Assembly: GCA_023246355.1 (NCBI GenBank)
Contig: JAHFIQ010000001.1
Coordinates: 81,887 to 145,886 of the forward strand
DNA length: 64,000 nt
Origin: Candidatus Uhrbacteria bacterium
GTDB lineage: Bacteria > Patescibacteriota > Patescibacteriia > UBA9934 > GWF2-40-263
Reading direction: 5' to 3'
Shown here: positions 1,851 to 45,587 of the stretch, in pieces
Layout: each line of letters opens with the position of its first letter
Position numbering within the stretch: the stretch's first letter is position 1
The notes under the pieces: generated by a model
Seen by the model: only the letters and a program-made list of their open reading frames with translations
The model's database searches: none
Told to the model about the DNA's origin: nothing
Program-made: the position numbers and the translations under genes

Positions 1851-3197
1851 ATGTTCATCTGTTCCCATTGCGACTCCCAATCCCTGAAGTGGTCTGGAAA
1901 ATGCGTGACCTGCGAAAAGTGGGGCACGCTTGTTGAGGAGAAGGCCGAGGTAGCCCCAGGCTTTAGCCAGGGTTCGGCCGCAAAAGCAAAGCCTGCAAAG
2001 AGTCAGGCTCTTTCTGATGTGGCGAAGCAAAACGAACATGATCGCTTGAGTACACAGGATCCTGAAGTGGATCGTGTCTTGGGTGGAGGAATTGTCGCGG
2101 GATCGGTTGTCTTGCTTTCGGGTGAACCAGGAATCGGCAAATCAACACTCGTGGCACAAATTGCCGGTAGTGTCCTTTCCACCTCTTCCACCTTATCCAC
2201 CTCATCTCCCTCCTCTGTCCTCTATATTTCTGGCGAAGAATCTGCAATGCAACTTGCTTCAAGATTTAAAAGATTATCTCTCACAGCCGACAGAGTCCGC
2301 GTGCTCGAACCTTTTCCTGTGGAGACACTGGTCGCGACCATCGAAAAGGAGAAGCCTTCCCTTGCTGTGATTGACTCGGTACAGACTCTCACCTCATCTC
2401 TCATCGACAGCACGGCTGGCTCACCGACCTTGGTGCGCTACGCCACTTCCCTGCTGCTTGATCTTGCCAAGCGCACCAACGTGTCAATTCTGCTGGTGGG
2501 ACAGGTCACCAAAGATGGATCGATCGCAGGGCCCAAGACCCTGGAACACTTGGTGGATGTGGTCGTGAATTTGGAAGGCGATCCTGTGCATAGCTATAGG
2601 ATGCTGCGCGCGGCCAAAAATCGATTCGGCGCAACAGACGAAATCGGCGTGTTTGAAATGACTGAGCAAGGACTCAAGGCTGTGACGAATCCTTCTGAAA
2701 GATTCTTAGCTGAGCGGTCAAGAACACCAGGATCTGTCATCGCCGCCACGGTCGAAGGTTCACGGGTGTTTCTCGTGGAAGTCCAGGCCCTGGTCGAACA
2801 AAGTTTCTACGGCACGCCTGTGCGCCGCGCCTCAGGCTTTGATCCCAACCGTTTACAGATGCTCGTGGCAATCCTGTCAAAACGTGCGGGCCTCAAACTC
2901 GGCGAGAAAGACGTGTATGTGAATGTGATCGGTGGAATGGACCTGCGAGAGCCGGCAGCTGACTTGGCGGTTTGTGCGGCGATCGTCAGCGCGTTTAAAA
3001 ATGTCACGGACGCGTCCTCAACGGTCTACCTGGGAGAAGTCGGCTTGGGTGGTGAAGTGCGCTCTGTGGGTCTTGTGGACAAGCGTCTCCAGGAAGCCGC
3101 ACGCCTTGGCATCACGGCCGCGGCAGTGCCGTCCAAGAGTAAAATAAAAATGAATTCCGTTGAGATTCGAAAAATAGAAAACGTAAAAGACCTCTGA
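1851..3197 (+). CDS. radA: DNA repair protein RadA/Sms
   Basis: N-terminal C4 zinc ribbon (CSHCDSQSLKWSGKCVTCEKWG), Walker A GEPGIGKST and a C-terminal Lon-like domain. It contains a 12-aa S/T-rich in-frame insert (STSSTLSTSSPS) encoded by a dispersed mini-repeat. Confidence 0.9.
   Translation: MFICSHCDSQSLKWSGKCVTCEKWGTLVEEKAEVAPGFSQGSAAKAKPAKSQALSDVAKQNEHDRLSTQDPEVDRVLGGGIVAGSVVLLSGEPGIGKSTLVAQIAGSVLSTSSTLSTSSPSSVLYISGEESAMQLASRFKRLSLTADRVRVLEPFPVETLVATIEKEKPSLAVIDSVQTLTSSLIDSTAGSPTLVRYATSLLLDLAKRTNVSILLVGQVTKDGSIAGPKTLEHLVDVVVNLEGDPVHSYRMLRAAKNRFGATDEIGVFEMTEQGLKAVTNPSERFLAERSRTPGSVIAATVEGSRVFLVEVQALVEQSFYGTPVRRASGFDPNRLQMLVAILSKRAGLKLGEKDVYVNVIGGMDLREPAADLAVCAAIVSAFKNVTDASSTVYLGEVGLGGEVRSVGLVDKRLQEAARLGITAAAVPSKSKIKMNSVEIRKIENVKDL
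2176..2212. repeat. GAGGTGGA-type mini-repeat inserted in-frame in radA
   Basis: ccacctcttccaccttatccacctcatctccctcc is the reverse complement of gatgaggtggataaggtggaagaggtgg. It encodes STSSTLSTSSPS. Confidence 0.6.
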
Positions 3198-6847: not shown

Positions 6848-7401
6848 ACGCCGTCCTCCGTCACATAACTTAAAATGATGTCTTGATACTTCACGGTTGT
6901 GTTTTGCGGTGAGTCAATGGCTTCTTCCCGTTGCGTGGTCACGGTCACCTGCGCCGTTCCGGCTGTTTCATCTTTCTCATCCACGGTCACGGTCACGATC
7001 GATGTGGAAACGCCATAGTAGCCTTCTGGCATTTCACCTTCGTCAATCATCTTTTGTGTTTTGGCCGCAAACGCCTCACTCATGAGGGGTAAGACATCCA
7101 CCAGGTTGCCAAAATCTGCTTCATTGGAATAACTCCCGTAGCGGGTGACAAATGTTTTTGAAAGAGACGTGACGTCAGACGTTTGTGTCCGTACTTCGCG
7201 TTCTTGTTCTAGTTCAAGCTCTGACACGGTCGGCCGATCTGGCACCACTTGTTCTTCTTGTGTGACCTCTGCCACCTCTTCACCCTGTTTCACCTCGTCC
7301 ACCTTCCCAGAAAACAAGACATACAAAAGCCAGCCAAGCAGCAGCAGTAAAATAAGCAGAATTAAGACAACAATTGAAATACGTTTGCGTCGAGTCATCA
7401 T
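6817..7401 (-). CDS. Bitopic membrane protein, possible VirB8/PrgL-like (NTF2-like) T4SS component
   Basis: N-terminal TM helix (ISIVVLILLILLLLLGWLLYVLF), acidic linker, and a ~110-aa C-terminal domain ending WKVDSAVWQ. Its start overlaps the VirB4 stop (ATGA). The VirB8 assignment rests on position and topology only. Confidence 0.4.
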   Translation of the reverse strand: MMTRRKRISIVVLILLILLLLLGWLLYVLFSGKVDEVKQGEEVAEVTQEEQVVPDRPTVSELELEQEREVRTQTSDVTSLSKTFVTRYGSYSNEADFGNLVDVLPLMSEAFAAKTQKMIDEGEMPEGYYGVSTSIVTVTVDEKDETAGTAQVTVTTQREEAIDSPQNTTVKYQDIILSYVTEDGVWKVDSAVWQ

Positions 7402-9506
7402 ACTTTGAGAGAGTCACGGATTTTATCGGCTTGTTCTTTTCCCGCGTTCTCCGTGGACAGCAAGGCGGCAGCGGCATCCTGTGCAGCCTTCTCCTGCTCA
7501 GCAATCTCCTGAGCCTCCTTGGCATCTTCATCCAAATCCATGACGTCTTCTTTTGCTTGTGCGGCCTGTGCAGCTTGGGATTCTTTCTGCTGTACTTCCT
7601 GAACTTTTTTCTGTTCATCAGCGATGTCTTGCTTTGCCTTTTCTTGTTTGAGCAATTGCTGCGGGTTGGTTGTCACAATCTGGTCCTCAACATAGGAGGC
7701 AACCACTTTGATGGCCGCATGCTTATTTCCTGCAAAGAAAATCCCCTCTCCCACTCCAGACTCAAGCAACAGATATTTTTCTCCATCGGTGAGGTGAAAC
7801 GTTTTTTGAATGTTGTCCACGGCTGAGGCTGCTTGTTTGAGAAGAACTTGCATGGCAGAGTTGGTCACAATCGCCTGGCCATAGGCCGAGCGCAAAAAGT
7901 CGTTCACGTCCTGGGTGATGGTGGTGACGCCAAGGAAATATTTTCTCGCACGCTTCACCAAGGCGAAAATAAACTTCGCCGAGTCCTCATTTTGCATGAG
8001 CCACCACGCTTCATCCACCACCAAAATACGCTTGCGGCGCACTGAGCGCACCACGTTCCAGATGTAATTGACGATGTTGTAAATGGCCACAGGTCGCAGT
8101 TCGTCCTCGAGGTCTCTGACGGAAAAAACGACTAATTGATTTTTCATCTCCACGTTGGTGGTGGAATTGAGCAGTCCCGCAAAGGTGCCTTCCGTATATT
8201 TCTGCAAACGCGCCATGAGATTGGACGAGCCTTCCATGCCGTCAAGCACGTCTTCAAAATCTGTGAGCGTAGGCGGTTCGACCGCGGAGAGATCGGTGAG
8301 ATCAGGCGTGATGTCTTTTTTCGCGTAGGTTTCAATGAGGGCTCGATCAAGCAGAGAGTCTTCCTCCGGGGTAAACCCAAGTTTGCCGCCCTCTCCAATG
8401 GGCTGACCAATCATGATACGCAACAGACCTTTGAGTGTGATCACGGCTGAGCGAATAATATCTTCGACTTTTGTTCCCTCACCGATCGCGCGAGGCAGGT
8501 CAAAGGGATTCACGCGAGCCTCGGAGGCCAGAGACACATTGATAAACGTGCCGCCCACCGCGTCAGACAAATCTTTATATTCGTATTCCGGATCTATCAC
8601 AATCACATCCACGCCCATCATGAGGGAGCGAATAATCTCAAGCTTCACGGTGTAGGACTTTCCTGCACCTGAGGTGGCAAACACGACCGCATTGGCATTT
8701 TGCAAACTAAAACGATCGAACAAAATAAGCGAGTTGTTGTGGCGGTTGATGCCGTAGAGGATGCCGTTATCGCTGGTGAGATCAGAGGAAATGAACGGGA
8801 AAGACGCGGCGATAGGACTGGTGTTCATGTTGTAGCTGATGACCAGCTCGTCGTTGCCAAGAGGAACTGTTGAATTGAACCCTTGTTCTGCCTGATAAAA
8901 ACCAGACTTTGTATAAATGAGTTTGCTTCCAAACAAGGATTCCACCTCCCCGGTAAATTTTTCCAGCTCTTCTGGAGACTTGGCGTAAATCGTCACGTAG
9001 AACGAAAACTGAAAGAAATGTTCAATGCCTTGGGTGAGGGCGTCACGCAGAGATTCAATATCGCGCAGAGCGGTTTCGGCAATCGGATCACGTGGCGCGC
9101 CTTTTTCCGCATCACCCAAAATTTTGGCTTCAAATACTCCTACCTTTTTTTGCAACTGCTTCAAAATAATGTTCGCCTTGAGCGGATAAAAGAACATGGC
9201 CACGTCAAACGTTTTGTTGAGATTGATGAGTGGCGAAGACCATCCCAAACCGATGTGGCGCGGGTAGGTGATGATAAACAATGTTCTGGCGTAGACCCCA
9301 GAGAGCATCAAGTACGTTGGCTTCACTTCAAATGATGCCGGCGCGATGATCTGCCTCACCGTGACCACACCACGCCGATACACCCGCTCTTCTTCCAGAA
9401 CGATCTTTTCCTCTGTGACGCGTTTCACCTCCGCCTTCACCTCCTTCACCTTTTCAGGCGGTGGCGCTGGCATCGCGGCTTTAATTTTTCCAATATCAAT
9501 GGGCAT
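7398..9506 (-). CDS. virB4: VirB4/TraC/PrgJ-like type IV secretion ATPase
   Basis: Walker A FATSGAGKSYT, Walker B/DEAW motif ILVVDEAWWLM and a TTITQDVNDF motif. The N-terminal region resembles Gram-positive-type VirB4 (FIITYPRHIGLGW). Confidence 0.8.
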   Translation of the reverse strand: MPIDIGKIKAAMPAPPPEKVKEVKAEVKRVTEEKIVLEEERVYRRGVVTVRQIIAPASFEVKPTYLMLSGVYARTLFIITYPRHIGLGWSSPLINLNKTFDVAMFFYPLKANIILKQLQKKVGVFEAKILGDAEKGAPRDPIAETALRDIESLRDALTQGIEHFFQFSFYVTIYAKSPEELEKFTGEVESLFGSKLIYTKSGFYQAEQGFNSTVPLGNDELVISYNMNTSPIAASFPFISSDLTSDNGILYGINRHNNSLILFDRFSLQNANAVVFATSGAGKSYTVKLEIIRSLMMGVDVIVIDPEYEYKDLSDAVGGTFINVSLASEARVNPFDLPRAIGEGTKVEDIIRSAVITLKGLLRIMIGQPIGEGGKLGFTPEEDSLLDRALIETYAKKDITPDLTDLSAVEPPTLTDFEDVLDGMEGSSNLMARLQKYTEGTFAGLLNSTTNVEMKNQLVVFSVRDLEDELRPVAIYNIVNYIWNVVRSVRRKRILVVDEAWWLMQNEDSAKFIFALVKRARKYFLGVTTITQDVNDFLRSAYGQAIVTNSAMQVLLKQAASAVDNIQKTFHLTDGEKYLLLESGVGEGIFFAGNKHAAIKVVASYVEDQIVTTNPQQLLKQEKAKQDIADEQKKVQEVQQKESQAAQAAQAKEDVMDLDEDAKEAQEIAEQEKAAQDAAAALLSTENAGKEQADKIRDSLKV

Positions 9507-9588
9507 AGAATAGGTGGATCAGGGAGACAAGGTGGAACAAGTGGTCGGAATCCGGAACCACCTAGTCTCCCTTGTCTACCTTTCTACC

Positions 9589-14830: not shown

Positions 14831-14850
14831 AATCTGGGGGAATTATAGCA

Positions 14851-14945
14851 TGGAAGAGGAGGTGGAAGAGGTAGACGAGGTGGATAAGGTGGATTGGAAA
14901 GTCATTCTAAAACCTCATCTCCCTCATCCACCTCGGCCACCTTAA
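14851..14945. repeat. GAGGTGGA-type mini-repeat, intergenic copy with a partial inverted copy
   Basis: gaggtggaagaggtagacgaggtggataaggtgg at 14851-14900, with the partial inverted copy cctcatctccctcatccacctc at 14921-14945. Near-identical to copies inside rsmA, radA and nusA. Confidence 0.6.
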
Positions 14946-21490: not shown

Positions 21491-21629
21491 CATGGAGACC
21501 TCTGCAAAACTCGATGAGATTGCGTTGAACGGGCTGTCGAGCCCCACGAGACGTAGGTTATCTACGTAGAGTGGGGTCGACGGGTGCCCGTGAAACGCAA
21601 GATCGCGAGTTTTGCAGAGGTCTCCATGG
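21491..21629. repeat. Long-hairpin intergenic repeat element, copy 1 (inverted orientation)
   Basis: Perfect 23-bp terminal inverted repeat catggagacctctgcaaaactcg / cgagttttgcagaggtctccatg. Conserved core ctcgatgagattgcg ... cgcaagatcgcgag. Confidence 0.75.
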
Positions 21630-21637
21630 TTTAAAAG

Positions 21638-22871: not shown

Positions 22872-22900
22872 CCCCGACTACGACAGTCGGGTTTTATTAT
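22872..22900 (+). terminator. Rho-independent terminator
   Basis: Stem cccgact/agtcggg followed by ttttattatt, directly after the lipoprotein stop. Confidence 0.5.
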
Positions 22901-22901
22901 T

Positions 22902-23029
22902 GAGACCTCTGCAAAAGCCGCGATCTTTGCTTTCACGGGCACCCAGGCACCTCCTCAACGTAGTTTTCACTACGTTTCGGAGGCTGCCAGCCCGTTCAAG
23001 CAAATCTCATCGACTTTTGCAAAGGTCTG
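22902..23029. repeat. Long-hairpin intergenic repeat element, copy 2
   Basis: gagacctctgcaaaagccgcgatc ... core acgggcacc ... caagcaaatctcatcgacttttgcaaaggtctg. Lies between convergent gene ends. Confidence 0.7.
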
Positions 23030-23074
23030 TATTGTCTATATTATCCCGAACCAAGTGAGGGATGACGCAGAGCG

Positions 23075-29000: not shown

Positions 29001-32000
29001 TCCGTCGCGATGGATTCATTACTCACAGACAAACTTGAAGTCGAGCTGCTTGTTTCTGAAATCACAAAATCATCGTACGTTCCATCTTCAAACGTCTCGT
29101 CCAAAATGGTCGTAGCATTTCGTCCTGTGCCGCCGGTATATTCTCGACACCCGCTTTGTTCAGCCGGACACTCGGTGCTTTCATCGGCCAACACGTAGTA
29201 GCGGCAGAAGCCTTGGTCCGTCCAATAGCCACCCGAGTCTTCACAGTCGGTTTCTGTTGACTCGTCTTTGCGATACGGCGCGCAGTCGTTGGAAATCGAA
29301 ATCGTGTCTGGATATTCCCGGTAATGAATGTTGCCTTCGGTATCGAAAAACTCTCGGCAGTCGGGATTATCAAAGATGTCATCGTGCTCGTCACAGTCTG
29401 CGTTGTCCCAGACGTCCGCTGACATATTCCCTGCAAACGAATCGTTACAGGAGACGTCGTTTTCTGATGTCATGGTGACATGCGTACAAGGCGCCAAGTC
29501 TGGCGAGTCTTCCACATAGCCAGAGCCCGAGAATGTTCCGGAGCTGGTCACGACATTTGATTCAAGCAAATACCACGTCTGCAACTGATAGCCTTCGTTG
29601 TCAGAACCTTCCCAGGTGAAAAACGTCGCTGGCGTGGTAAATTTGTCACTGCTATCTGCAATATCCTCACTCAAACAAAATCGCAGTGAAGAATAATTCT
29701 CAGTCCCTTCTCCACCTGCATCCACGGCATCAAGGTTGGTGTAGGAATCGCACCCAATGTATTGCGATGAACACGACGTGGCGCGATCAGCAATAAAGTA
29801 GAGCGGAAATTCCTCCGAGTCATAATCCGTGGCTTCCTGTTTGTACGTGGTGTAGCCCACACATTCCTCAGGACACTCGTCCAGTTCCGAGATAATCGCT
29901 GGGACATCTGGATCTCCATCTTCAGGTGTGTAGAGATTGCACCCAACTTCTTGGGCGCTGCAGACCTGAGCGTAATCATCACACTCAGAAGGATCCGTAT
30001 CAGCATCTCCTGTGCATCCAAGGTAATCTGGCGCGACTTGATAATAGACTTCGGTAGCGCTGGTGTTGTAATCCTCAGTAAAGTTGCTCACGTCTTCTCC
30101 AAGCTCCAGTTGCACGGCATCAAGCAAAATTTCATCTGAGTCAAATTTCAACAGTCCTTGCGCTACGTCTTCTGGCGTCGTAAATGTACAATCAAACTGC
30201 GTCCACTCTCCAGAAGTAAATTGTGAACTATCAGTTGGATCAGCTGTGATGACATACGATGAGGTTCCTTGCACACAGTCACCTCCATACGAAGTTCCTG
30301 CGACGGAGACGGCTTCACCAAATTCATCGTACAAATACAAGTAGGCATACGTTTCAGCCGCCGCAGTGTTGTCCGCACGAGCGGAAAAACTCAATGTGTA
30401 AAAGTTGTTCGGTGAGAGCGAAACGTATTGCTCAAGAATGCTCGCGTCTGTGCTGAAACTGAAACTTCCAGATACAGGACCATCATCTTCCTGCATCGTC
30501 TGAGCAGACGTTGCTGCGGATCCGTTGGTCCAGTTGTCTGGAACATCGTCCTCGTCTTCGTCAGATTCAAAACTCGGGTTCTGGATTTGGTTAAACACCA
30601 AATCATCGTTAAATTCATTCAACCGTGTACAGCCTATATCATCCTCGGAACATTCCTCTGCTTCGTTAGTGAAATAGATCCGATCGTTGTAGGCGTAGGA
30701 CGTGTTTGAATAAATCTCTCCTGAGTCAGACGTATAGCTGTAGCTCACAGGCTCCTCAGAATCTCCTGTGCTCAGTTGATACTTCCAAGCTGAATCGTGA
30801 GTGGCTGTGGTGTACGTTTCCCCGTCAGGAAGAAACTCATAGGTATCGTCACTGTCGTCATCAGCGGTGCCTGCATCTTCATAATGCTTCTGCGTGGCAT
30901 ACCACCGGCAACCGGCATTGTTGGAATCGCATACTGAATAATCCACACTGCTTACGCGATAAGCTGCCTTGTCTCCGGTAAACGTATTTTCAAACGAAAG
31001 ACATGTTGAATATTCCTCAGGACATTCATCCCCGCGAAAGCGCCAAGTATTTTTTTCCCTCACGCAATACCCGTAACCGTCGGAACAATTGCCGTCGTTG
31101 TCCTCCCCGATACAGCTTGGTGCATCAACGCATGAACTGGCACGGCCTGGCGTCTGAGCCCCGATGCGAATTTCTCCGTTGGCAATCGCACGACATTGAG
31201 TCTCAGGATATTTCAAAACCCAGTTTGGATCGATCAGATGGCACCACTCATCCGCACCAGAGCTTGAATTGGCCGGACCGATTGTCCCGTCTTCCGTACA
31301 ATCATCAAATCCATCGACAATATCTTGCAAGGTCGCTGGAGATCCACTGTCATTGCGAAGTGCGGCCAGCTCCCACCCAACAGGAATCACACGAGCTTTC
31401 CTGAGCTTCACCAAGTTTCCATAGCAATACCCATACGTATAGCAGTAAGGATCTTGGTTGGCTGAGGTGTCTTCAGGAGAAATGAGCGGCCAGTCGCCGT
31501 TCAATAACCCCTCATCAATCGCCTCCTGCACAGTCAGTGCGGCAACAGCGCCACTGGACCCACGACTGACGGCTGCCATAAAATTGGTGTCCATGACACA
31601 ATTATTGAGACCTCGGTTACTCACATTCCCTGACACACAGACGACAAATTCTCCTAATGCATTGTATTGTGTGGTGGCAATCGGGGAGGACGAAAAAATA
31701 CTCGCAAACCGCGCTTGAGCGGTTTCTTTACTTCCCTCAGCGGTAGCTTCAACATCAAATGGATCGATGTCCAAAGAAACATCAAATAATCCAGTATAAA
31801 TTCGGGAAAACAAAGTTGAGAGCAGCGTGTTGGTAAACGTCGAGGCTGTTGTCAGCGCTAAGCCTCCGATAAGATCGCCCGCACCAACCAGGTCTCCAAC
31901 CTTTACTTTCTCTTGATCAGAAGCCGATAATTTTTTGTGAAAATCTTCAGTCACCGTCGCAGAAGGTGTTTTTACATCCCCCGTAATAAAATCTGTCACC

Positions 32001-32803
32001 GGCTTATATTCATCCTTGGTGATGCCCATGAGCTCAAGCAATTTGGCTTCCCGCACCTTTCCATCAATGGCAATGTTGGTTCGAAGTGCTGCACTGATTT
32101 CGTTTTGACCTGGTTTCAAGGACTCGGCGAATTTGCTCAACACAGCTTCTTGAATAGCCTCTGGATCGGTCACGGTTTGATAGATGTTCGTAAAAAATGA
32201 CCCCCAGGCTTTTCCGACTTCCAAAATATCACATCGAGGCGCTGAAGGTTGATATTTTTGTTTGATCCCAATCGCCAGAGCAAGCTGAAGAATCCCGTCT
32301 GGGGAACAGAGATTGAATTTGTATCCAAGGTCTCCTGTAAGATCCGACATCGTTGCCACAGCCTCGCCCGCGGCCTCAAGTCCCAATTGACCAAAGGCTT
32401 CTGCCGGGGTCTTGTTGTAAAAAAGCGAACCCTCGCCAGGACCTCCTGAGGCAACGGCCACGGCCGCTTCATAAGCGAGACGATCAAGGACAAAACGAGA
32501 AAGATTCATGAGCGATTGGACAAGCGCCACACGAAAAGCCGGCGAGGCAATTTTTTTTCCGATGGTATCCAACACCTCGCCGATCGCATCCGGAGGACAG
32601 GTACTGGGAACAGCAGCTGTTTTTAAACAGACGGCTCGTGAACCCTTCACCACAACCTCGGCAGTTGTTTGGGCAGGGTTGTCTTGGGCTTGCACTCCGC
32701 GAGCCACAAAAATGCCCAAACTCACAAAACTAAACACAAACACCATTAAGAATCCTGCTGTGATCAATCGTTTTGTGTGATGGGATGCGTTGGTCATACG
32801 CAA
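23075..32803 (-). CDS. Giant (3242 aa) secreted/surface protein, Cys-, D/E-, S/T- and G-rich
   Basis: Single uninterrupted ORF with an N-terminal signal/TM (LITAGFLMVFVFSFVSLGIFVARG). Many Cys-rich segments. NPSFESD-type motifs suggest carbohydrate-binding-like modules. The antisense ORFs are artefacts. Confidence 0.8.
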   Translation of the reverse strand: MRMTNASHHTKRLITAGFLMVFVFSFVSLGIFVARGVQAQDNPAQTTAEVVVKGSRAVCLKTAAVPSTCPPDAIGEVLDTIGKKIASPAFRVALVQSLMNLSRFVLDRLAYEAAVAVASGGPGEGSLFYNKTPAEAFGQLGLEAAGEAVATMSDLTGDLGYKFNLCSPDGILQLALAIGIKQKYQPSAPRCDILEVGKAWGSFFTNIYQTVTDPEAIQEAVLSKFAESLKPGQNEISAALRTNIAIDGKVREAKLLELMGITKDEYKPVTDFITGDVKTPSATVTEDFHKKLSASDQEKVKVGDLVGAGDLIGGLALTTASTFTNTLLSTLFSRIYTGLFDVSLDIDPFDVEATAEGSKETAQARFASIFSSSPIATTQYNALGEFVVCVSGNVSNRGLNNCVMDTNFMAAVSRGSSGAVAALTVQEAIDEGLLNGDWPLISPEDTSANQDPYCYTYGYCYGNLVKLRKARVIPVGWELAALRNDSGSPATLQDIVDGFDDCTEDGTIGPANSSSGADEWCHLIDPNWVLKYPETQCRAIANGEIRIGAQTPGRASSCVDAPSCIGEDNDGNCSDGYGYCVREKNTWRFRGDECPEEYSTCLSFENTFTGDKAAYRVSSVDYSVCDSNNAGCRWYATQKHYEDAGTADDDSDDTYEFLPDGETYTTATHDSAWKYQLSTGDSEEPVSYSYTSDSGEIYSNTSYAYNDRIYFTNEAEECSEDDIGCTRLNEFNDDLVFNQIQNPSFESDEDEDDVPDNWTNGSAATSAQTMQEDDGPVSGSFSFSTDASILEQYVSLSPNNFYTLSFSARADNTAAAETYAYLYLYDEFGEAVSVAGTSYGGDCVQGTSSYVITADPTDSSQFTSGEWTQFDCTFTTPEDVAQGLLKFDSDEILLDAVQLELGEDVSNFTEDYNTSATEVYYQVAPDYLGCTGDADTDPSECDDYAQVCSAQEVGCNLYTPEDGDPDVPAIISELDECPEECVGYTTYKQEATDYDSEEFPLYFIADRATSCSSQYIGCDSYTNLDAVDAGGEGTENYSSLRFCLSEDIADSSDKFTTPATFFTWEGSDNEGYQLQTWYLLESNVVTSSGTFSGSGYVEDSPDLAPCTHVTMTSENDVSCNDSFAGNMSADVWDNADCDEHDDIFDNPDCREFFDTEGNIHYREYPDTISISNDCAPYRKDESTETDCEDSGGYWTDQGFCRYYVLADESTECPAEQSGCREYTGGTGRNATTILDETFEDGTYDDFVISETSSSTSSLSVSNESIATDGHSLYVSATGGLAGFETIQIYLDSATTTETYDEAGDAAGTSTTCTGNGGTIGDSGCDVENDVDADGSADEDCTIEDSEESCGALTSDLVGGKTFVVDFWAKGSGNMYVTFEEEGGSGDTHDLSNPSATISSASDLTPVELTGSWQLFSLGPLDTSDYADFDENAVLRFRVASAAEAYVDNISLKQVEEDITLIKDSWVVPSTCDATADGVESDQYYLGCEAYTDQNGVDADLYQFSDLCSEDVVGCEGFFDTGNSDSSYQQVYNARCMYSSDTDFSDEPETVGANTTCEIDGVEYCTITSGSSYCTFDADTVLEEPLPSEAVSSTVHYAVVFGPETVIVPTDAPVYLVADDTYECDEEAMGCEELGLPTFNQDQSEVDSFESVYYLNLPEDYDTLLCSDEELFCEEWDSTQDGNFYFKDPLDKTCEYQDSVTIGNQEYSGWFRSGTTEPCDWTDSDASGDFDPDEDDSYLINGNEFGVWANGDDDYDGWVAACEDAYDLCTEFVDVVDTAGGGGEDGESYYFTNDDLLSEDTLTDTQRCDGQVSQKFGCAVFNNTTDSELSYNAGASYVVSMHADVFFGEEQNSLQDPIDCELDEGGEFTVSSSDADALGLTSETVDLCARRCSYEVEDGDSIDTPSATEVSSTQVYERSCLVDDDCPVLTTNLGEDVTATCEDVSATYALDDDANEVIKVNRDRSCSAWLACESSKTSWNTTSSTYDTICDSINLCVEGTNQGDTSTCTQWDSSDPEILGAYQYSARDVNWFGEEWSGGTIPNQLPTDLYTQFNLEPTTVCMETTSTELTNDAGLPTYCNTYEDCGVSTTACTTNADCASYSGICSDSGYCYYSCANNSDTDYRLVYNAGPCDATESGDGNGGSCSIGMCEDSGSACASDDDCSGSEACVVGYCQASGTTNCVNSDCSCNPDNDNSSDGTNSDCTTNTTDIGLHTYFCDPVQFVCVDKFTSENDFVATEACDADTSCSAYAYGATCVPASTSTTGECFNNRCLSDIKDDNGDGYADTLAISGGEVTSGREMGCRGYPEIDSPYPTSVVDDWKTFRYSTADGTSPTDATFSASGSGGLPASWYSLPYAYVGGFQDSAVCGLDLYGEPVDCDCSYDKVEYGEGSGYRYYEAGTGADTFSQSGEVPDGICTGGPVPGLPCLDDDDCSIGTTQVGTCSALSGVSTMYGWEGYCIEKDTSIQTLGSSDTEDQACLSWLPVDQLAGSTDLYGKYTSAGYTPQETYYCADIEAAYSVWTSNILCAEEVDDYCDGGLYYDHEGTEAEQDDAETTWDVWLATANDPSSNSTNDDCISSVFCPEGYFAVMTGCGGQDNSTYHDLNGGASGQYCGASITTDDCPYFCVPKFSYKTATDAEGDDGDRCLSPGNYYTVDYSVNTSDVGDHWYPGLNVEVYVLAPWRFDNAFELYDDCAARGVLGDSLDEFTSPYDLLEDGIPTTEDPTTCYGNNLVSCGYYYSYADGITGVDSLAAWVFTRYPACSTLVQVSATEPNEDDYPFDSYNAAWTDRLWESSSAAFSIADPGGDDAHFGYTYDTLLSPYGVATDPEELAVEFTTDDNPDPWAHTPVMCSEGNDDYQIPPVETTTACDASASSFTSTAGEDARSFRDFSMTFDSVVPTSGYTTFTENDTIDDAISRLSQLFGRIYGMIQFEDGYEGVAAQEVPDGALTTGFNTGEQFGSWTPVAYEDLAADEPWLWDTRSVGDDDNEPEPPTVVSVGDCVGTECIEDTEGKFNIGEVDGGDLEGEGTYHANVSFFTYANSNQMPIRRIVIDWGDDFGGVQPTGLGAHWPTGSQSGSTAEDNFYQNHRGLNATSEQEICGSDPVEFGTSSTACSTSYINFAHDYICTDGDTALLTSRTCEYDDTDTTRLLNSPCLDSSGACVFQPRVSVTDNWGWCTGFCDAGADGTDNCFSGETEDGTSVRECNIESCPSEGDSSSCVDYGGAGTANPWINFDGTIAVTPD

Positions 32804-33499
32804 CTATTCCGAAGGAGTTTGTACAAGCGCATCGAGCTCGCCTAAGGCAGCAGCCTCTTCAAGCGCGCCGTTCAAATAATCTTGAAGGGTCTGGTCGTCG
32901 ATCGAATCGAGTTCTTCCTGGCTCATGCCAGCTTCCAAAAGCGCGGCACGAATTTGTTCGACCGTTGCGGACTTAAAAAAGGCTTCGACATCTTCAGGAG
33001 AATCAAACTGTACAGAACCGGCTTGAAGCAATTGATCTTCGCCAAGTCCTTGGATGAGACCTTCCACAGAGGCGCCGTTTTCTCCCACTTCCTCAGACCC
33101 TGTCACAAAAGAGCCGCAGTCTTTTCCCTCTGGACAATTTGGATTGTTTCCTGAAAAAACTTCTTGCTTGTCGTCATAGCCGTCTGAATCTGAGTCGCTT
33201 ACGTAGGGTGAGGTCTTGTACACATACAACTCGTCGTAATCGACCAAGCCGTCGCTGTCCGTATCTTTTGTTTTGGATTCTTCCAGAGCCTGTGCCTCGC
33301 GCTGTTCTGAGGTGAGATAGGGTTGGCCTGTTGCCAATGCCGCGATCTGTTCTTGGATCGGACGAGCAAGATTGGCGCCAAAAGATTTAAACCCAAAAAA
33401 GAAACCGCCAAAACCTAAAAACATTAAAAGCACGAACGCGAATTTCTGCTCCGCGCTCAAGGCTCGAGGTGGCCTTGTTCCTAATCGTCGTGTGGCCAT
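32804..33499 (-). CDS. Membrane-anchored protein with thrombospondin-type-3-like calcium-binding D-rich repeats
   Basis: Likely start MATRRLG at 33499. TM FAFVLLMFLGFGGFFFGF. DTDSDGLVDYDELYVYK and SDSDSDGYDDKQE (DxDxDG) motifs. Its stop abuts the giant gene start, indicating an operon. Confidence 0.55.
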   Translation of the reverse strand: MATRRLGTRPPRALSAEQKFAFVLLMFLGFGGFFFGFKSFGANLARPIQEQIAALATGQPYLTSEQREAQALEESKTKDTDSDGLVDYDELYVYKTSPYVSDSDSDGYDDKQEVFSGNNPNCPEGKDCGSFVTGSEEVGENGASVEGLIQGLGEDQLLQAGSVQFDSPEDVEAFFKSATVEQIRAALLEAGMSQEELDSIDDQTLQDYLNGALEEAAALGELDALVQTPSE

Positions 33500-33503
33500 A
33501 ATC

Positions 33504-33632
33504 GAGACCTCAGCAAAAGTCGCGATCTTGCAACTTACGGGGCCCCGCCACCACCTCAACGTAGGATTTACCTACGTCTCGGCGGCTGGCTTCCCCGTGC
33601 GTTGCAATCTCATCGACTTTTTCAGAGGTCTC
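33504..33632. repeat. Long-hairpin intergenic repeat element, copy 3
   Basis: gagacctcagcaaaagtcgcgatc ... cacggggccccgccaccacctcaacgtag ... ctcggcggctggcttccccgt ... gcaatctcatcgactttttcagaggtctc. Confidence 0.75.
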
Positions 33633-33664
33633 TAGTAGAGAGATTATAACAAAACACCCAGGGT

Positions 33665-34492
33665 TTACCTAGGCGTTTTATCTTCCACAGGAGCCAAGAT
33701 GTGGGTAAGTGTCCTCCAGTTTTCTACCGTGAGGGATTCGGCGCGAATTTTGGGATCTAATTTCAGTGACTCAAGCGCGACTTTGACCTGTAGCGATGAC
33801 AAATGCAGATGCGCTGAGAGATTATGATGGAGCTGCTTGCGGCGTGAGGAAAAGCCGGCTTTGGCGATGGAGATGATTGATTCAAGAGGTGGTGAGGTGG
33901 AAAAGGTAGATGAGGTGGATGAGGTAGAACATGAAAGGTCGAGACGAACAATTGCGGAATCAATCTTTGGAATAGGCCGAAACGCGCCAGCAGGAACATT
34001 CGCGATTTTTTCACAGTGAGCGTAGAGCTGGCAGACAACGGAGAGCAGACTCATGTGTGGTGGCAGTGCCGTGATTCTGTCGGCTACTTCTTTCTGAACC
34101 ATCAGAACCATGCGGGATGGTTTTGGATCGGTTGTCAGGAATTTTTTCAAGAGATCAGAAGTGATGTTGTAGGGAATATTTGCAATGAGTTTGTAGCCGC
34201 AGGCTTCAGCCTGTGTTCCGTGAAGTGAAAAAGACAAAGCATCACCGTGGATCAGAGTAATCTTGGTGCCAAAACGGTCGTGTAAAGCATCAACGAGATC
34301 TTGATCAGCCTCGATCGCCGTCACTCTGGCACCTGCATCGACCAGTGCTTGAGTCAGAACCCCCGTTCCTGGACCAATCTCAAGCACGTGCTCGCCAGGG
34401 TGAATCTCAGCGGCCACGATTATTTTGGCAACGACTGTCTCATCCACCAGCCAATTTTGCCCAAAAGATTTTTTCGCACGCGGCAATCTCAT
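33665..34492 (-). CDS. rsmA: 16S rRNA (adenine1518/1519-N6)-dimethyltransferase RsmA/KsgA
   Basis: FGQNWLVDETVV, SAM-binding motif LEIGPGTGVLT, NIPYNITS. Contains the in-frame insert CSTSSTSSTFSTS encoded by the GAGGTGGA mini-repeat. Confidence 0.85.
   Translation of the reverse strand: MRLPRAKKSFGQNWLVDETVVAKIIVAAEIHPGEHVLEIGPGTGVLTQALVDAGARVTAIEADQDLVDALHDRFGTKITLIHGDALSFSLHGTQAEACGYKLIANIPYNITSDLLKKFLTTDPKPSRMVLMVQKEVADRITALPPHMSLLSVVCQLYAHCEKIANVPAGAFRPIPKIDSAIVRLDLSCSTSSTSSTFSTSPPLESIISIAKAGFSSRRKQLHHNLSAHLHLSSLQVKVALESLKLDPKIRAESLTVENWRTLTHILAPVEDKTPR
33886..33940. repeat. GAGGTGGA-type mini-repeat inserted in-frame in rsmA
   Basis: gaggtggtgaggtggaaaaggtagatgaggtggatgaggtagaacatgaaagg, near-identical to the intergenic copy at 14851-14900. 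Confidence 0.65.
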
Positions 34493-37165: not shown

Positions 37166-37222
37166 ACACGAGCGTTCAGTGACAACGTGTCGAGAAGCAA
37201 CACGTTGTCACTAAATACGTTA

Positions 37223-37349
37223 GAGGCCTCTGCAAAACTCGATGAGATTGCGATGCGCGGGGAAGCCAGCCTCCGAGACGTAGTGAAAACTACGTTGAGG
37301 AGGTGGCGGGGCCCCGCAAGTCGCAAGATCGCGAGTTTTGCAGAGGTCC
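37223..37349. repeat. Long-hairpin intergenic repeat element, copy 4 (inverted orientation)
   Basis: gaggcctctgcaaaactcgatgagattgcg ... gaggtggcggggccccgcaagtcgcaagatcgcgagttttgcagaggtcc. Confidence 0.75.
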
Positions 37350-37351
37350 CG

Positions 37352-37687
37352 TTACAATTTTATCTGTTTAGCAAACACTCCCAGCACCGGCATGTTCCAC
37401 AGACGCCCTTGCAGGGCGTTGATCATCCCCAAGATCATGAGGATGATGAGCACAATAGAACCAAGCATCCAGACAATCTGTCCGAGCACGGGAATGACAT
37501 TGCCCACCCACAGGATGATCCAGGCAACGAGCAGCACGAGTCCTTGCTTGCCATGATGCTGGGCAAACGCAGAGTCTTTTTTTAGAAGCAATGGAACCAA
37601 ACACAGGATTCCCAGGTACCCGATCGCGGCAAGGAAACGATCGTCTGGGAGATGGACCTGTGGAGGAACGTGATCTCGTTGAGTCAT
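37352..37687 (-). CDS. Small membrane protein (DUF4870-like topology)
   Basis: Likely start MTQRDHVPP. Three or four TM helices. The N-terminal extension in the ORF track is a read-through of the repeat element. Confidence 0.45.
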   Translation of the reverse strand: MTQRDHVPPQVHLPDDRFLAAIGYLGILCLVPLLLKKDSAFAQHHGKQGLVLLVAWIILWVGNVIPVLGQIVWMLGSIVLIILMILGMINALQGRLWNMPVLGVFAKQIKL

Positions 37688-37841: not shown

Positions 37842-39506
<1,665 letters not shown>

Positions 39507-39797: not shown

Positions 39798-39863
39798 AGA
39801 AAAAGGGATTAGGGGGTAGGTATTAGGTAGTAGAGGAAGGGCAAAAAAATTACGCTAGCAGTC

Positions 39864-42841: not shown

Positions 42842-44083
42842 TTAGGCTTGTTCGGTAGTATCCGGTGCCACCTCTTTCACCTCGTCTACCTTCTCCACCT
42901 CTGCCACCTGTTCCACCTTCTCTTCACCTGATATATTAATTTTCCATCCTGTGAGCCGCGCGGCAAGGCGAACGTTTTGGCCACCTTTGCCAATCGCCAG
43001 AGACAGCTGATCGTCTTTGACTTTTGCAAACGCGCTCATGTCTTCTTTTTTAAGCTCAAGACTCGTGACCTTGGCTGGGGAAAGTGCGTTGGTGATAAAC
43101 GTCTCTGGGGATTCACTCCACTCGACAATATCAATCTTCTCACCACCCAGCTCAGCAATAATGGTCTGAATACGCGACCCGCGCTGACCAATGCACGCCC
43201 CGATTGGATCGATCGTGTTCTCGCTGGTTGTGACCGCGACTTTTGATCTGGATCCGGCTTCTCTGGCAATGCCTTTGATTTCCACCAGCCCCTCGCCGAC
43301 CTCTGGCACTTCAAACTCAAACAGCTTGCGCACCATTTCCTCAGACGTGCGGGATACCAAAATTTCTGGACCCTTGGTTGTGAGTCCAACTTGGCGGACA
43401 AAGACTTTAATCCGGTCGCCCGTGTTGTAGCGCTCCGTTGAAATTTGATCTTCAGGACGCATCACACCAGTCGTGCGGCCAAGATCCACGAGCACAATGC
43501 GACCTTCACGACGTTGGACCGTGCCGTTCATGATGGTGCCTTCGTGTTCCTTGAACTCACTAAAAATCACTTCACGTTCAGCCTCGCGCAATTTTTGCGT
43601 GATGACTTGCTTGGCCGTCATGGCTGCCATGCGACCAAATTCTCCCGCCTGAGGAAGTTCTGTACGCAAGACCTCCCCAATTTCTGCATCATGTTTCAAA
43701 ACCCGTGCATCAGAAAACATGAGATCTGTTTTTGGATTGAACCGTGGACCCAACTCTTCTTCAAAGGAAATAGCTGGAACCTCCTCGCCTTTTCTGCGCG
43801 CCTCTTCCACCTGAAGGGCAAGCGCTTCGGCTTTGGCTTTGCGTTCTGTTTCAAGACGTTCAAGTTCGAGAAGATCGACATCTTCGACAACCGTCTTCAC
43901 GTCATACACATGTGACTCAGCCGTGGCGGGATCAAACTCCACTTCAATATTTTGATTTTTGTCACCAAAATCTTTTCGATACGCTGCCGCCAGGGCGGAT
44001 TGAATCGCGTCAATCACAGACTCGTACGCCAGTCCTTTTTCCTCACAGATTTGTCTAATCGCTTGTTCGATCGCTGAAGCCAT
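42842..44083 (-). CDS. nusA: Transcription termination/antitermination factor NusA
   Basis: N-terminal domain, S1 and KH domains. The C-terminal tail QVAEVEKVDEVKEV is encoded by a GAGGTGGA mini-repeat copy. Confidence 0.9.
   Translation of the reverse strand: MASAIEQAIRQICEEKGLAYESVIDAIQSALAAAYRKDFGDKNQNIEVEFDPATAESHVYDVKTVVEDVDLLELERLETERKAKAEALALQVEEARRKGEEVPAISFEEELGPRFNPKTDLMFSDARVLKHDAEIGEVLRTELPQAGEFGRMAAMTAKQVITQKLREAEREVIFSEFKEHEGTIMNGTVQRREGRIVLVDLGRTTGVMRPEDQISTERYNTGDRIKVFVRQVGLTTKGPEILVSRTSEEMVRKLFEFEVPEVGEGLVEIKGIAREAGSRSKVAVTTSENTIDPIGACIGQRGSRIQTIIAELGGEKIDIVEWSESPETFITNALSPAKVTSLELKKEDMSAFAKVKDDQLSLAIGKGGQNVRLAARLTGWKINISGEEKVEQVAEVEKVDEVKEVAPDTTEQA
42867..42930. repeat. GAGGTGGA-type mini-repeat forming the 3' end of nusA
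   Basis: The reverse complement reads gaggtggagaaggtagacgaggtgaaagaggtgg, which matches the other copies. Confidence 0.6.
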
Positions 44084-44260
44084 AAAATATTCTTAGGAAA
44101 GGATTTAAAACGATGAGATGCGAAGGGCTGGAGGAAGCAACAGCCGAGGCGTACTGAAACGTACGGTGAGGCTGTTGTGAACCGAAGCCCGAGCAGATCG
44201 CGTTTTAAATCCTTTCAATAAAGAAACCCGTCTAGCGACAGGTTTCAGGATGTCCATAAT

Positions 44261-45383: not shown

Positions 45384-45511
45384 GAGACTGTTGCAAAACT
45401 CGCGATCTTGCGTTTCACGGGGCCCCGCCACCACCTCATCGTAGCTTTCGCTACGCCTCGGCGGCTGGCTTCCCCGTTCAACGCAATCTCATCGAGTTTT
45501 GCAACAGTCTC
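45384..45511. repeat. Long-hairpin intergenic repeat element, copy 5 (abuts tRNA-Val)
   Basis: Terminal stems gagactgttgcaaaactcg / cgagttttgcaacagtctc are perfect and carry compensatory changes relative to copy 1. Core cgcgatcttgcgtttcacggggccccgccaccacctcatcgtag. Confidence 0.75.
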
Positions 45512-45587
45512 CTACTACGACCATTGGAGCTTACAGGATTTGCGTCTTCAAATCAAAATTTAAAAGCGCCAGTCGTTGGCGCTTGCG

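What the first reader, a model, noticed from the sequence alone, without database searches (positions are those of the whole stretch)
33886..33940. Dispersed GAGGTGGA mini-repeat inserted in-frame into conserved housekeeping genes (radA, rsmA, nusA)
A ~40-50-bp unit (consensus roughly gaggtggaagaggtagacgaggtggataaggtgg) occurs at 14851-14945 (intergenic, with an inverted partial copy), 33886-33940 (in rsmA), 2176-2212 (in radA) and 42867-42930 (3' end of nusA). In radA and rsmA it adds S/T-rich loops (STSSTLSTSSPS and CSTSSTSSTFSTS) at positions where orthologues are contiguous. In nusA the other orientation supplies the acidic tail EVEKVDEVKEV. This resembles Rickettsia palindromic elements, which insert in-frame into ORFs.
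Basis: partly seen in the sequence, partly recalled or inferred. Interest (0 to 1): 0.7.

Follow-up and report, generated by a model that had tools for sequence, protein, structure and literature searches.

The report
Nine-base repeat arrays inside essential genes
An uncultured groundwater bacterium (Candidatus Uhrbacteria) carries a family of short repeats built from 9-base units that forms hairpins between genes and adds in-frame, probably harmless loops to essential proteins such as RadA and RsmA, much as the 'selfish' palindromic elements of Rickettsia do.

Summary
At all four reported sites, and at several more, the window holds head-to-tail arrays of a 9-base unit ([G/A]AGGT[G/A]GAN, 3-6 units). 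There are 8 arrays against 0.01 expected by chance. The repeat is an array of 3-codon units, not a single 40-50-bp unit.

Copies between genes are inverted pairs of arrays. They fold into long hairpins that fill stop-to-start spacers. Copies inside genes are single arms, and they sit only in frames that read (E/K)V(E/D), STS or PPx.

- **radA:** the array adds 33 nt (11 aa) that orthologues of 85-90% identity lack. It lies in a low-confidence loop after the Walker A helix.
- **rsmA:** the array replaces a hypervariable inter-domain linker. Only a 95%-identical relative shares it.
- **nusA:** the array encodes the C-terminal tail. Related species share this tail with about 3-7 units.

The nucleotide match exceeds a synonymous-codon null (P 2e-4 to 4e-3). 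Related Uhrbacteria carry the family at other loci (gyrB, nrd, grpE).

Best explanation: a lineage-specific, frame-neutral palindromic repeat family. It is copied to new sites, changes length by slippage, and selection filters which copies survive. It works like Rickettsia palindromic elements but is not a member of that family. How it spreads is unknown.

The parts
33885..33929 (+). Array of 5 units (AGAGGTGGT GAGGTGGAA AAGGTAGAT GAGGTGGAT GAGGTAGAA) inside rsmA. The gene is 33665-34492 on the - strand and reads the array antisense as SCSTSSTSSTFSTSP. It lies in the linker between the methyltransferase domain and the C-terminal domain.
2175..2216 (-). Array of about 4 units inside radA (gene 1851-3197 on the + strand), read antisense as LSTSSTLSTSSPSS. 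It adds a net 33 nt (11 aa) relative to orthologues without it. It sits between the helix after Walker A and the next beta-strand.
42866..42919 (-). Array of 6 units at the 3' end of nusA (gene 42842-44083 on the - strand), read in sense as KVEQVAEVEKVDEVKEVA. This is the C-terminal tail.
14850..14943 (.). Full palindromic element: forward arm 14850-14894, centre 14895-14907, reverse arm 14908-14943. It lies between the terminator of the M23-peptidase gene (15018-17132) and the TGCTATAAT box and start (14830) of a 910-aa gene. It folds at -47 kcal/mol, z -6.8.
9507..9588 (.). Full palindromic element that fills the whole spacer between the stop codon of a TraC-like ORF (9589-10392, - strand) and the ATG of a VirB4-like ATPase (7398-9506, - strand). 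The centre is GGTTCCGGATTCCGACC (9543-9559). It folds at -38.6 kcal/mol, z -4.1.
7243..7305 (-). Degenerate array in a 194-aa membrane-anchored protein (6817-7401, - strand), read in sense as KVDEVKQGEEVAEVT just after the transmembrane helix.
   Evidence: P 0.017
9426..9452 (-). Weak 3-unit array in the N-terminus of the VirB4-like protein, read as KVKEVKAEVK. It is a possible decayed copy.
   Evidence: P 0.02
39798..39842 (-). G-poor groES leader (CTACTACCTAATACCTACCCCCTAATCCC...). It is probably an eroded reverse arm: the orthologous site in relative L130 holds an intact 4-unit array at 16923-16958, a few bases before the groES ATG.

Best explanation
The window comes from a Candidatus Uhrbacteria (Patescibacteria/CPR) genome that carries a lineage-specific family of small repeat elements. 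The building block is a 9-bp unit, [G/A]AGGT[G/A]GAN.

The full element is about 85-115 bp. It has a forward array, a short centre and a reverse array, and it folds into a long hairpin. It sits in very short spacers between genes, typically running from the stop codon of one gene to a few bases before the start codon of the next.

Because one unit equals three codons, a single arm can also sit inside an ORF without breaking the reading frame.

Inferred steps:
- Copies are written into new sites by a copy-paste or templated-repair process. The enzyme is unknown.
- Copies then gain and lose units by replication slippage.
- Selection removes any copy that damages a protein. Only copies at termini, domain linkers and surface loops survive, and only in frames that give flexible hydrophilic peptides.

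The inserts in RadA and RsmA are most likely neutral passengers. The NusA tail array supplies an acidic tail of the kind that other Uhrbacteria obtain from unrelated sequence.

Shown here: the repeat family, its anatomy, filled versus empty orthologous sites, the frame bias, unit-number variation, and the loop location.

Inferred only: the mode of spread, neutrality, and any role of the hairpins (for example in RNA stability or translation).
For: Statistics:
- 8 arrays against 0.01 expected.
- The 8-mer occurs 11 times against 2.5 expected.
- The nucleotide fit exceeds the synonymous-codon null.
- The same DNA motif is read on opposite strands as EV(E/D) and as STS, which protein-level selection cannot explain.

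Filled versus empty sites:
- radA has +33 nt in the window and in L127 (P0122). L126 (P0123) and L128 (P0124) are empty.
- Upstream of nusA, L131 is empty, L130 has a 6-unit solo arm, L108 has a degenerate hairpin, and the window has a different repeat.

Dispersal to non-orthologous loci in related genomes:
- GrpE N-terminus, the GyrB Toprim/C-terminal linker, two sites in ribonucleotide reductase, a glycosyltransferase, and surface proteins.
- Also upstream of murA, of an M16 peptidase gene, of clpB and of groES.
- 10 of the 119 stretches returned by a truncated scan of 185,579 species genomes come from four Uhrbacteria-type MAGs.

Anatomy:
- Hairpins fold at -36 to -54 kcal/mol, with z-scores of -3.9 to -7.6.
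- Copies at unrelated loci in the window and in CAYHRJ01 share the central motif.

Selection filter:
- 12 independent coding copies use the frames EV (8), STS (3) and PPx (1). None uses the other three frames. Under equal use of the six frames this has a probability of about (1/2)^12, or 2e-4.
- The inserts are coil, with pLDDT below 50 in RadA and about 57 in RsmA.

Slippage:
- The nusA tails of relatives hold about 3-7 units.

Permissive sites:
- Other Uhrbacteria carry unrelated inserts in the same RadA and RsmA loops.
- One genome has two 98%-identical 99-nt palindromes in frame in rsmA.
Against: - No transposase, integrase or reverse transcriptase was found among the genes of the window or its flanks.
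- No target-site duplication or defined element termini were seen at the two filled/empty comparisons. Transposition is therefore not shown.
- Copies inside genes are single arms, not whole palindromes, so their descent from the hairpin element rests on the shared 9-mer.
- In rsmA the array mostly replaces a loop rather than adding to it (net +6 aa). This fits conversion or templated repair better than simple insertion.
- No strain-level polymorphism was seen. All assemblies carrying the identical RsmA that were fetched match the window exactly at these sites.
Confidence: 0.62

Rival explanations
1. Local minisatellites only. Each array arose in place by replication slippage from a chance proto-repeat, and nothing moved between loci. 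The shared motif would then reflect a sequence that is unusually prone to slippage or is favoured by mutation bias.
For: - Unit number varies at the orthologous nusA tail.
- Arrays are pure tandem repeats.
- No mobility enzyme or target-site duplication was found.
- GGTGGA is mildly over-represented outside the arrays, 55 against 36 expected, so seeds exist.
Against: - The empty radA site holds a unit-like GGTGGAAAT, but in the opposite orientation to the array in the filled allele. No same-strand seed is visible.
- The empty site upstream of nusA (L131) has no seed.
- Copies between genes share a composite layout (arm, conserved centre, inverted arm) at unrelated loci and in different genomes. 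Slippage does not produce that layout.
- 8 arrays of one motif in 64 kb against 0.01 expected.
Confidence: 0.15
2. The element is primarily a functional RNA or DNA signal. The hairpins would act as intercistronic RNA elements (stabilisers, processing or attenuation sites, or occluders of the start codon). The C-rich reverse arm would serve as an unstructured, G-poor leader for Shine-Dalgarno-independent translation. Copies inside genes would be by-products.
For: - Most intergenic copies examined end within about 20 nt upstream of a start codon.
- Several begin at or next to the stop codon of the gene before.
- All four solo arms upstream of genes (murA, M16 peptidase, nusA, groES) place the C-rich strand in the mRNA.
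- Genes here show no obvious Shine-Dalgarno motif, and the groES and groEL leaders are G-poor and ACCTACC-rich.
- The solo-arm leader is unstructured, with z 0.17.
- The hairpin between the M48 peptidase gene and clpB is kept in two species.
Against: - Spacers are so short that any element inserted there must lie next to a start codon.
- The genes downstream are functionally unrelated.
- The orthologous nusA leader is empty in one relative and is filled by a different repeat in the window, so no particular sequence is required.
- No Rfam family matches.
- There are no expression data.
Confidence: 0.15
3. Convergent protein-level selection for low-complexity acidic (EVE) or S/T-rich linkers, with the nucleotide similarity being a by-product of codon bias.
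For: The tails and linkers of many Uhrbacteria orthologues are acidic or low in complexity.
Against: - The synonymous-codon null is rejected.
- Ser and Thr codon usage in this genome is nearly flat (TCC 0.19, ACC 0.33), yet the inserts use TCC-ACC-TCN.
- The S/T arrays are the exact reverse complement of the EV arrays.
- Identical arrays occur in non-coding hairpins.
Confidence: 0.03
4. The 9-mer is a protein-binding or uptake signal kept by selection or molecular drive. Candidates are a DNA uptake sequence, a DnaA-box-like site (TTATCCACC against the consensus TTATCCACA) or a Chi-like site (GGTGG).
For: - The unit length is 9 bp.
- Some units read TTATCCACC, one base from the canonical DnaA box (sequence; the consensus is from general knowledge).
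- Inverted pairs of uptake sequences are known in Neisseria (general knowledge).
- CPR bacteria are thought to take up DNA (general knowledge).
Against: - Single units outside the arrays are not enriched: GAGGTGGA occurs 3 times against 2.4 expected. Uptake sequences, by contrast, are dispersed singly at about one per kb.
- A head-to-tail 9-bp spacing is not how DnaA boxes are arranged.
- The copies lie inside unrelated genes.
- No binding data exist.
Confidence: 0.05

Closest known systems
Rickettsia palindromic elements (RPEs; Ogata et al. 2000, as summarised in PMC10969869)
   Same: - A small non-coding repeat family dispersed through a reduced genome.
- Found both between genes and in frame inside unrelated conserved genes.
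- The encoded segments lie where the protein fold tolerates them.
- No transposase is encoded by the element.
   Different: - RPEs are about 100-150-bp units inserted whole, each family encoding a conserved peptide.
- Here the copies inside genes are 27-54-bp single arms made of 9-bp tandem units. They are read on either strand and vary in unit number.
- The host is a different phylum.
- No sequence relationship was tested.
REP/BIME elements (repetitive extragenic palindromes) of Proteobacteria (PMC3733652 and PMC3184786, listed)
   Same: High-copy imperfect palindromes in spacers between genes of the same or neighbouring operons. They form stable stem-loops in DNA or RNA.
   Different: - REPs are 20-40 bp, usually carry a GTAG or CGTC tag, stay outside genes, and are linked to RAYT transposases.
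- Here the arms are arrays of 9-mers.
- Half of the copies are inside genes.
- No RAYT was seen.
Mycobacterial interspersed repetitive units (MIRUs; from general knowledge, not checked in the paper library)
   Same: - Short units in tandem, dispersed at many loci.
- They sit in spacers inside operons, with ends that touch or overlap the flanking stop and start codons.
- Unit number varies between strains.
   Different: - MIRU units are 46-101 bp and are not palindromic pairs.
- They are not reported as in-frame inserts in the middle of housekeeping enzymes.
In-frame minisatellites / VNTRs and PARCELs (PMC2996958)
   Same: - Tandem coding repeats whose length is a multiple of three.
- Copy-number variation.
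- For PARCELs, dyad-symmetric DNA that can be read on both strands and appears to move between loci.
   Different: - VNTRs are normally locus-specific. Here one 9-mer recurs at more than 20 unrelated loci.
- PARCELs encode a 25-residue amphipathic domain in surface proteins of unknown function. They are not loops in housekeeping enzymes.

Membership tests
Rickettsia palindromic elements (RPE) | Inserted in frame in unrelated protein-coding genes, at positions compatible with the fold | tested here: met
   radA and rsmA, and in relatives gyrB, nrd, grpE and a glycosyltransferase. The inserts are coil with low pLDDT, or lie in linkers.
Rickettsia palindromic elements (RPE) | A unit of about 100-150 bp with palindromic structure, inserted whole, each family encoding a conserved peptide | tested here: not met
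   Copies inside genes are 27-54-bp non-palindromic arrays of 9-bp units, read as EV, STS or PPx depending on strand and frame. Only the intergenic copies are palindromic, at 82-115 bp.
Rickettsia palindromic elements (RPE) | Sequence similarity to RPE consensus sequences; host genus Rickettsia | not tested
   No RPE consensus was available in the tools. The host is Candidatus Uhrbacteria, judged from the source names of the closest RsmA, RadA and NusA homologues.
REP/BIME | A 20-40-bp imperfect palindrome confined to extragenic regions | tested here: not met
   Arms are 27-54 bp each and built of 9-mers. About half of the copies lie inside ORFs.
REP/BIME | Association with a RAYT (Y1) transposase | tested here: inconclusive
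   No such domain was found among the genes of the window and its flanks. Only about 72 kb of the genome was seen.
MITE | Terminal inverted repeats flanked by a target-site duplication | tested here: inconclusive
   Intergenic copies are inverted repeats along their whole length. No duplication was recognisable at the radA or nusA-leader filled/empty pairs.
MITE | A related autonomous insertion sequence with the same ends | not testable with these tools
   This needs the complete genome or a pangenome. None was seen in the loci fetched.
VNTR / coding minisatellite | Head-to-tail units with copy-number variation at an orthologous locus | tested here: met
   9-bp period. The nusA tails of relatives hold about 3-7 units.
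VNTR / coding minisatellite | Locus-specific origin (a unit not shared among unrelated loci) | tested here: not met
   The same unit is found at 7 loci in the window and at more than 15 other loci in related genomes.
DNA uptake sequences (USS/DUS) | Strong genome-wide excess of single dispersed copies of the motif | tested here: not met
   Outside the arrays, GAGGTGGA occurs 3 times against 2.4 expected, and RAGGTRGA 10 times against 6.1.

The most novel reading that the evidence does not exclude
The 9-bp-unit palindrome is an active, frame-neutral element peculiar to a clade of CPR bacteria, and it does two jobs. First, it is a general generator of the lineage-specific insertions seen in CPR housekeeping proteins. 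Spread would be by templated repair or by transformation-driven recombination rather than by a transposase. Second, its C-rich arm has been co-opted as a leader for Shine-Dalgarno-independent translation, and its hairpin as an intercistronic regulator. On this reading, insertion next to a start codon rewires gene expression.
Probability: 0.2. Interest if true: 0.75.

Novelty: new variant of a known kind. Interest (0 to 1): 0.55.

Why it matters
Proteins of CPR/Patescibacteria are full of unexplained lineage-specific insertions. This case gives a concrete DNA-level source for some of them.

The source is repeat families that colonise tiny intergenic spacers and, because their unit is three codons long, also colonise permissive loops of essential enzymes.

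The same RadA and RsmA loops were hit independently by different repeat families in different Uhrbacteria. This maps permissive sites in these proteins. It also suggests that selfish DNA inside coding genes, so far best known from Rickettsia, is common in another group of reduced genomes.

There are practical consequences:
- Such arrays can mislead gene callers. One database NusA begins with a spurious STS-rich extension.
- They can also disturb alignments, phylogenies and assembly.

Tried and rejected
- **Codon-bias explanation.** Rejected by a synonymous back-translation null. An earlier run used the wrong frames and is discarded, apart from its codon-usage table.
- **Uptake-sequence or single-motif enrichment.** Single units outside the arrays are not enriched.
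- **Known RNA family.** No Rfam hit at gathering threshold other than five tRNAs.
- **The 9507-9588 hairpin splitting a virB4 gene.** Rejected. The upstream ORF matches its own Pfam family, TraC-like PF26593, in the precomputed annotation.
- **Locus L099** (a 64,274-nt contig) as the source of the window. It is not; it belongs to another Uhrbacteria genome.
- **Strain-level variation in unit number.** None found. All six fetched assemblies with the identical RsmA match the window exactly at rsmA, and the two that reach nusA match there too.
- **A mobilising enzyme.** No transposase, integrase or reverse-transcriptase domains among the scanned or pre-annotated genes.
- **The conserved centre as a search handle.** It occurs only once in the window and in two loci of one relative.
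- **Literature.** Six searches found no description of this family in Uhrbacteria or CPR.
- **The small + strand ORF at 14851-14946** (MEEEVEEVDEVDKVDWKVILKPHLPHPPRPP). Judged a by-product of the palindrome; not tested further.
Full report
**1. The observation**

The sequence at the four reported sites holds the motif as described. Tandem Repeats Finder reports a 9-bp period at each site:
- 2177-2203;
- 14859-14894 and 14912-14942;
- 33893-28;
- 42868-42918.

(The third range reads 33893-33928 in full.)

A scan for three consecutive units of GAGGTGGAN finds arrays at:
- 2177-2212 (-);
- 7270-7305 (-);
- 9426-9452 (-);
- 9511-9537 (+);
- 14850-14894 (+);
- 14908-14943 (-);
- 33894-33929 (+);
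- 42866-42919 (-).

A further copy lies at about 9560-9590 (-).

Eight arrays reach 19 of 24 matches, against 0.01 expected under a first-order Markov model of the window. The exact 8-mer occurs 11 times against 2.5 expected. The thing is therefore real and far beyond chance. It is an array of 3-codon units, not a 40-50-bp unit.

**2. Genes and organism**

Pfam identifies three of the host genes:
- 1851-3197 (+) is RadA.
- 33665-34492 (-) is the RsmA/KsgA dimethyltransferase.
- 42842-44083 (-) is NusA.

The closest homologues of all three are named Candidatus Uhrbacteria or Patescibacteria by their sources. At least 12 contigs from independent assemblies carry the identical RsmA. The six that were fetched match the window exactly at the rsmA array, and L001 matches it over all 20.8 kb.

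**3. radA**

In an alignment of 30 orthologues, the stretch from GIGKST to SGEES is 27 residues long in most sequences. It is 38 residues in the window and in P0122 (90% identity). P0123, P0124 and P0125 (90, 87 and 85% identity) have the short form.

At the DNA level the two forms compare as follows:
- Empty allele: ...TCG GTT GGT GGA AAT GTG CTT...
- Filled allele: ...AGT GTC CTT TCC ACC TCT TCC ACC TTA TCC ACC TCA TCT CCC TCC TCT GTC CTC...

The difference is a net +33 nt.

The two filled alleles differ at 7 of 42 positions. This is similar to the divergence of the whole gene, which is 81% identical at the nucleotide level. The array therefore entered before these two lineages split, and it has since drifted.

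Against the solved S. pneumoniae RadA (5LKM), the extra residues fall in a gap between the helix that follows Walker A and the next strand. In an AlphaFold model (mean pLDDT 82.5), residues 108-122 are coil and residues 112-119 have pLDDT below 50.

One detail is unexplained. The empty allele of P0123 carries GGTGGAAAT. This matches the reverse complement of the first unit of the filled allele (CTTTCCACC) at 8 of 9 positions.

**4. rsmA**

The array lies between the last strand of the methyltransferase domain (AIVRLD) and the first helix of the C-terminal domain.

This linker is highly variable among 41 Uhrbacteria orthologues. The segment from AIVRLD to AKAGFSS is 26-54 residues long, commonly 30-31, and 37 in the window. 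Only P0001 (95% identity) shares the S/T-rich sequence. The next relatives in the alignment (71-76% identity) have unrelated sequences of 34-50 residues.

The array (45 nt) therefore mostly replaces an older loop, for a net gain of about 6 residues. In the model (mean pLDDT 89.8), residues 187-202 are coil, and the 191-200 block averages pLDDT 57.

**5. nusA**

The array encodes the tail that follows the last KH domain. Relatives of 78-95% identity have the same kind of tail with different unit numbers. Examples:
- EEKKVEEVDKVEEVA;
- EVEKVDKVDEVEKVEEVEKVA;
- EEKVAEVEKVDEVEKVV.

More distant Uhrbacteria have unrelated acidic tails. The DNA of four species confirms that these tails are 9-bp arrays with about 4-7 units. 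This copy is old, and it behaves like a variable-number tandem repeat.

**6. Not a codon-bias effect**

Each peptide was back-translated 100,000 times using the window's codon usage. The fraction of back-translations that fitted the 9-mer consensus as well as the real sequence was:
- radA: 2e-4;
- rsmA: 4e-3;
- nusA: 1e-3;
- the two weak copies: 0.017 and 0.02.

Serine codon usage here is nearly flat. The S/T arrays are the reverse complement of the E/V arrays, and the same arrays occur in non-coding DNA.

**7. Intergenic copies are palindromes**

In the window, 14850-14943 and 9507-9588 each consist of a forward array, a centre and a reverse array. They fold at -47 and -38.6 kcal/mol, with z-scores of -6.8 and -4.1.

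The 9507-9588 copy fills the whole spacer from the stop codon of a TraC-like ORF to the ATG of a VirB4-like ATPase.

Eight kb upstream of the window, in the same genome, a further hairpin runs from just after the stop codon of an M48 peptidase gene to about 6 nt before the clpB start. The orthologous spacer in a relative, L128, holds the same kind of hairpin.

Hairpins at unrelated loci share a centre of the type GGTTCCGGATTCCGACC. Local slippage does not produce such a composite layout. This is the main reason to call the repeat a dispersed element family.

**8. Spread in related genomes**

A pattern scan of one genome per species (185,579 species) stopped at 119 stretches. Ten of them belong to four Uhrbacteria-type MAGs:
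- JACRJW01 (6);
- JACQSF01 (1);
- JACQSJ01 (1);
- CAYHRJ01 (2).

CAYHRJ01 is labelled Gammaproteobacteria, but it encodes a RadA 87% identical to the window's, in a syntenic locus.

In those genomes, arrays inside genes sit in:
- the N-terminal region of GrpE;
- the GyrB linker between the Toprim domain and the C-terminal domain;
- two places in a ribonucleotide reductase;
- a glycosyltransferase;
- surface proteins.

Arrays also lie directly upstream of murA and of an M16 peptidase gene.

A 21-kb locus of another relative (L130) has five array loci:
- the nusA leader;
- the nusA tail;
- the groES leader;
- a hairpin after the MamF-like gene;
- a weak 20/24 match at 20106-20132 that was not examined further.

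**9. Filled and empty states at an intergenic site**

The spacer between the terminator of the UPF0102 gene and the nusA start differs among four genomes:
- L131 has 15 nt and no repeat.
- L130 has a 6-unit solo arm.
- L108 has a degenerate hairpin.
- The window has a fragment of a different palindromic repeat.

The site has therefore been colonised repeatedly and independently.

**10. Selection filter**

Twelve independent coding copies use only three of the six possible frames:
- (E/K)V(E/D): 8 copies;
- STS: 3 copies;
- PPx: 1 copy.

The frames that would give RW-rich, GG/stop or (F/L/I/V)HL strings are not seen. All coding copies examined lie at termini, in domain linkers or in loops.

Other Uhrbacteria carry unrelated inserts in exactly the same RadA and RsmA loops. 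One Patescibacteria genome has two 98%-identical 99-nt palindromes in frame in two loops of rsmA. Tolerance of these sites, rather than targeting, is the simplest reading.

**11. Mechanism**

Shown:
- the family and its anatomy;
- gains at orthologous sites;
- unit-number change;
- the frame and position filter.

Inferred:
- Copies are written into new sites by an unknown copy-paste or templated-repair route.
- Slippage then changes their length.
- Selection keeps only harmless copies.

No transposase-like gene and no target-site duplication were found.

A functional role for the intergenic copies cannot be excluded:
- Genes here lack obvious Shine-Dalgarno motifs.
- The groES and groEL leaders are G-poor and ACCTACC-rich.
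- The C-rich arm is the strand present in the mRNA upstream of several genes.
- A solo arm is unstructured.

**12. Comparison and novelty**

In behaviour the family is closest to Rickettsia palindromic elements, which are selfish repeats found in frame in conserved genes (PMC10969869). It fails the defining anatomy of RPEs, which are whole 100-150-bp palindromes each encoding a conserved peptide.

It also shares traits with REP/BIME elements, with MIRUs, and with coding minisatellites or PARCELs.

Six literature searches found no description of this family. I rate it a new variant of a known kind. The new aspect is a palindromic element whose arms are arrays of a 3-codon unit, which makes any arm fragment frame-neutral.

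Noticed in passing
window 21485-21633, 22899-23053, 33499-33656, 37212-37361, 45384-45512, 58745-58878 (partial copy at 44138-44171): A second, unrelated dispersed repeat of about 130 nt with six copies. It folds into one long hairpin with ends GAGACCTCTGCAAAACTCG...CGAGTTTTGCAGAGGTCTC. Of 48 predicted pairs, 18 show compensatory changes between copies. It has no Rfam match.
   Followed up: partly
window 3198-3929 and 3935-5242 (- strand): RecG is split into two ORFs (435 aa and 243 aa). The reading frame changes just before ...SILNEMPHGRKP. Relatives have a single 681-aa RecG. This is either a frameshift (pseudogene) or a sequencing error, and it is present in an independent assembly too (L133).
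   Followed up: partly
window, 40 nt upstream of 39 start codons (for example 39468-39506 and 39798-39842): There is no obvious Shine-Dalgarno motif upstream of most genes. The leaders of groES, groEL, nusA and others are G-poor and rich in C, T and A. This suggests Shine-Dalgarno-independent initiation in this lineage.
   Followed up: no
RadA orthologues P0126, P0127, P0128, P0135, P0148, P0154, P0156; RsmA orthologues P0002, P0055, P0090, P0109, P0119: Other Uhrbacteria carry different inserts of 10-34 aa at the same RadA and RsmA loops. Many have PLSKGELEGV-like strings, which are typical of translated GC-rich palindromes. The same permissive sites have been hit independently.
   Followed up: partly
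L132 10260-10358 and 10623-10721: In another Patescibacteria genome (GCA_004297215.1), rsmA holds two 98%-identical 99-nt palindromic elements in frame, in two different loops.
   Followed up: yes
L126 (P0123) radA, codons for GGN; window 2175-2183: The empty radA allele carries GGTGGAAAT. This matches the reverse complement of the first unit of the filled allele (CTTTCCACC) at 8 of 9 positions, so the seed-like sequence is in the opposite orientation. Unexplained.
   Followed up: no
L099 5499-8000 (- strand): The ribonucleotide reductase of a related Uhrbacteria genome carries an intein with a LAGLIDADG domain, in addition to two 9-mer arrays.
   Followed up: no
window 58925-63904 and 23075-32803 (- strand): Two giant ORFs of 1,659 and 3,242 aa. 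The first contains at least seven copies of a 321-nt (107-aa) tandem repeat.
   Followed up: no
P0251 (NusA, 457 aa): A database NusA begins with MAKVFRTSTSSISSTSSTLSTSSTYPL ahead of the normal MSSPIEQ start. An upstream array has been read as a spurious N-terminal extension, which shows that these arrays can mislead gene callers.
   Followed up: no
L007, L087, L128 (CAYHRJ01, GCA_964359095.1): This MAG is labelled 'uncultured Gammaproteobacteria'. It encodes a RadA 87% identical to the window's, and its locus is syntenic with the window genome over the M48 peptidase gene, clpB, radA and recG. It is an Uhrbacteria relative, so the label looks wrong.
   Followed up: partly
window 14851-14946 (+ strand): The palindrome contains a 31-codon ORF, MEEEVEEVDEVDKVDWKVILKPHLPHPPRPP*, on the strand opposite to the flanking genes. 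It is probably not expressed.
   Followed up: no
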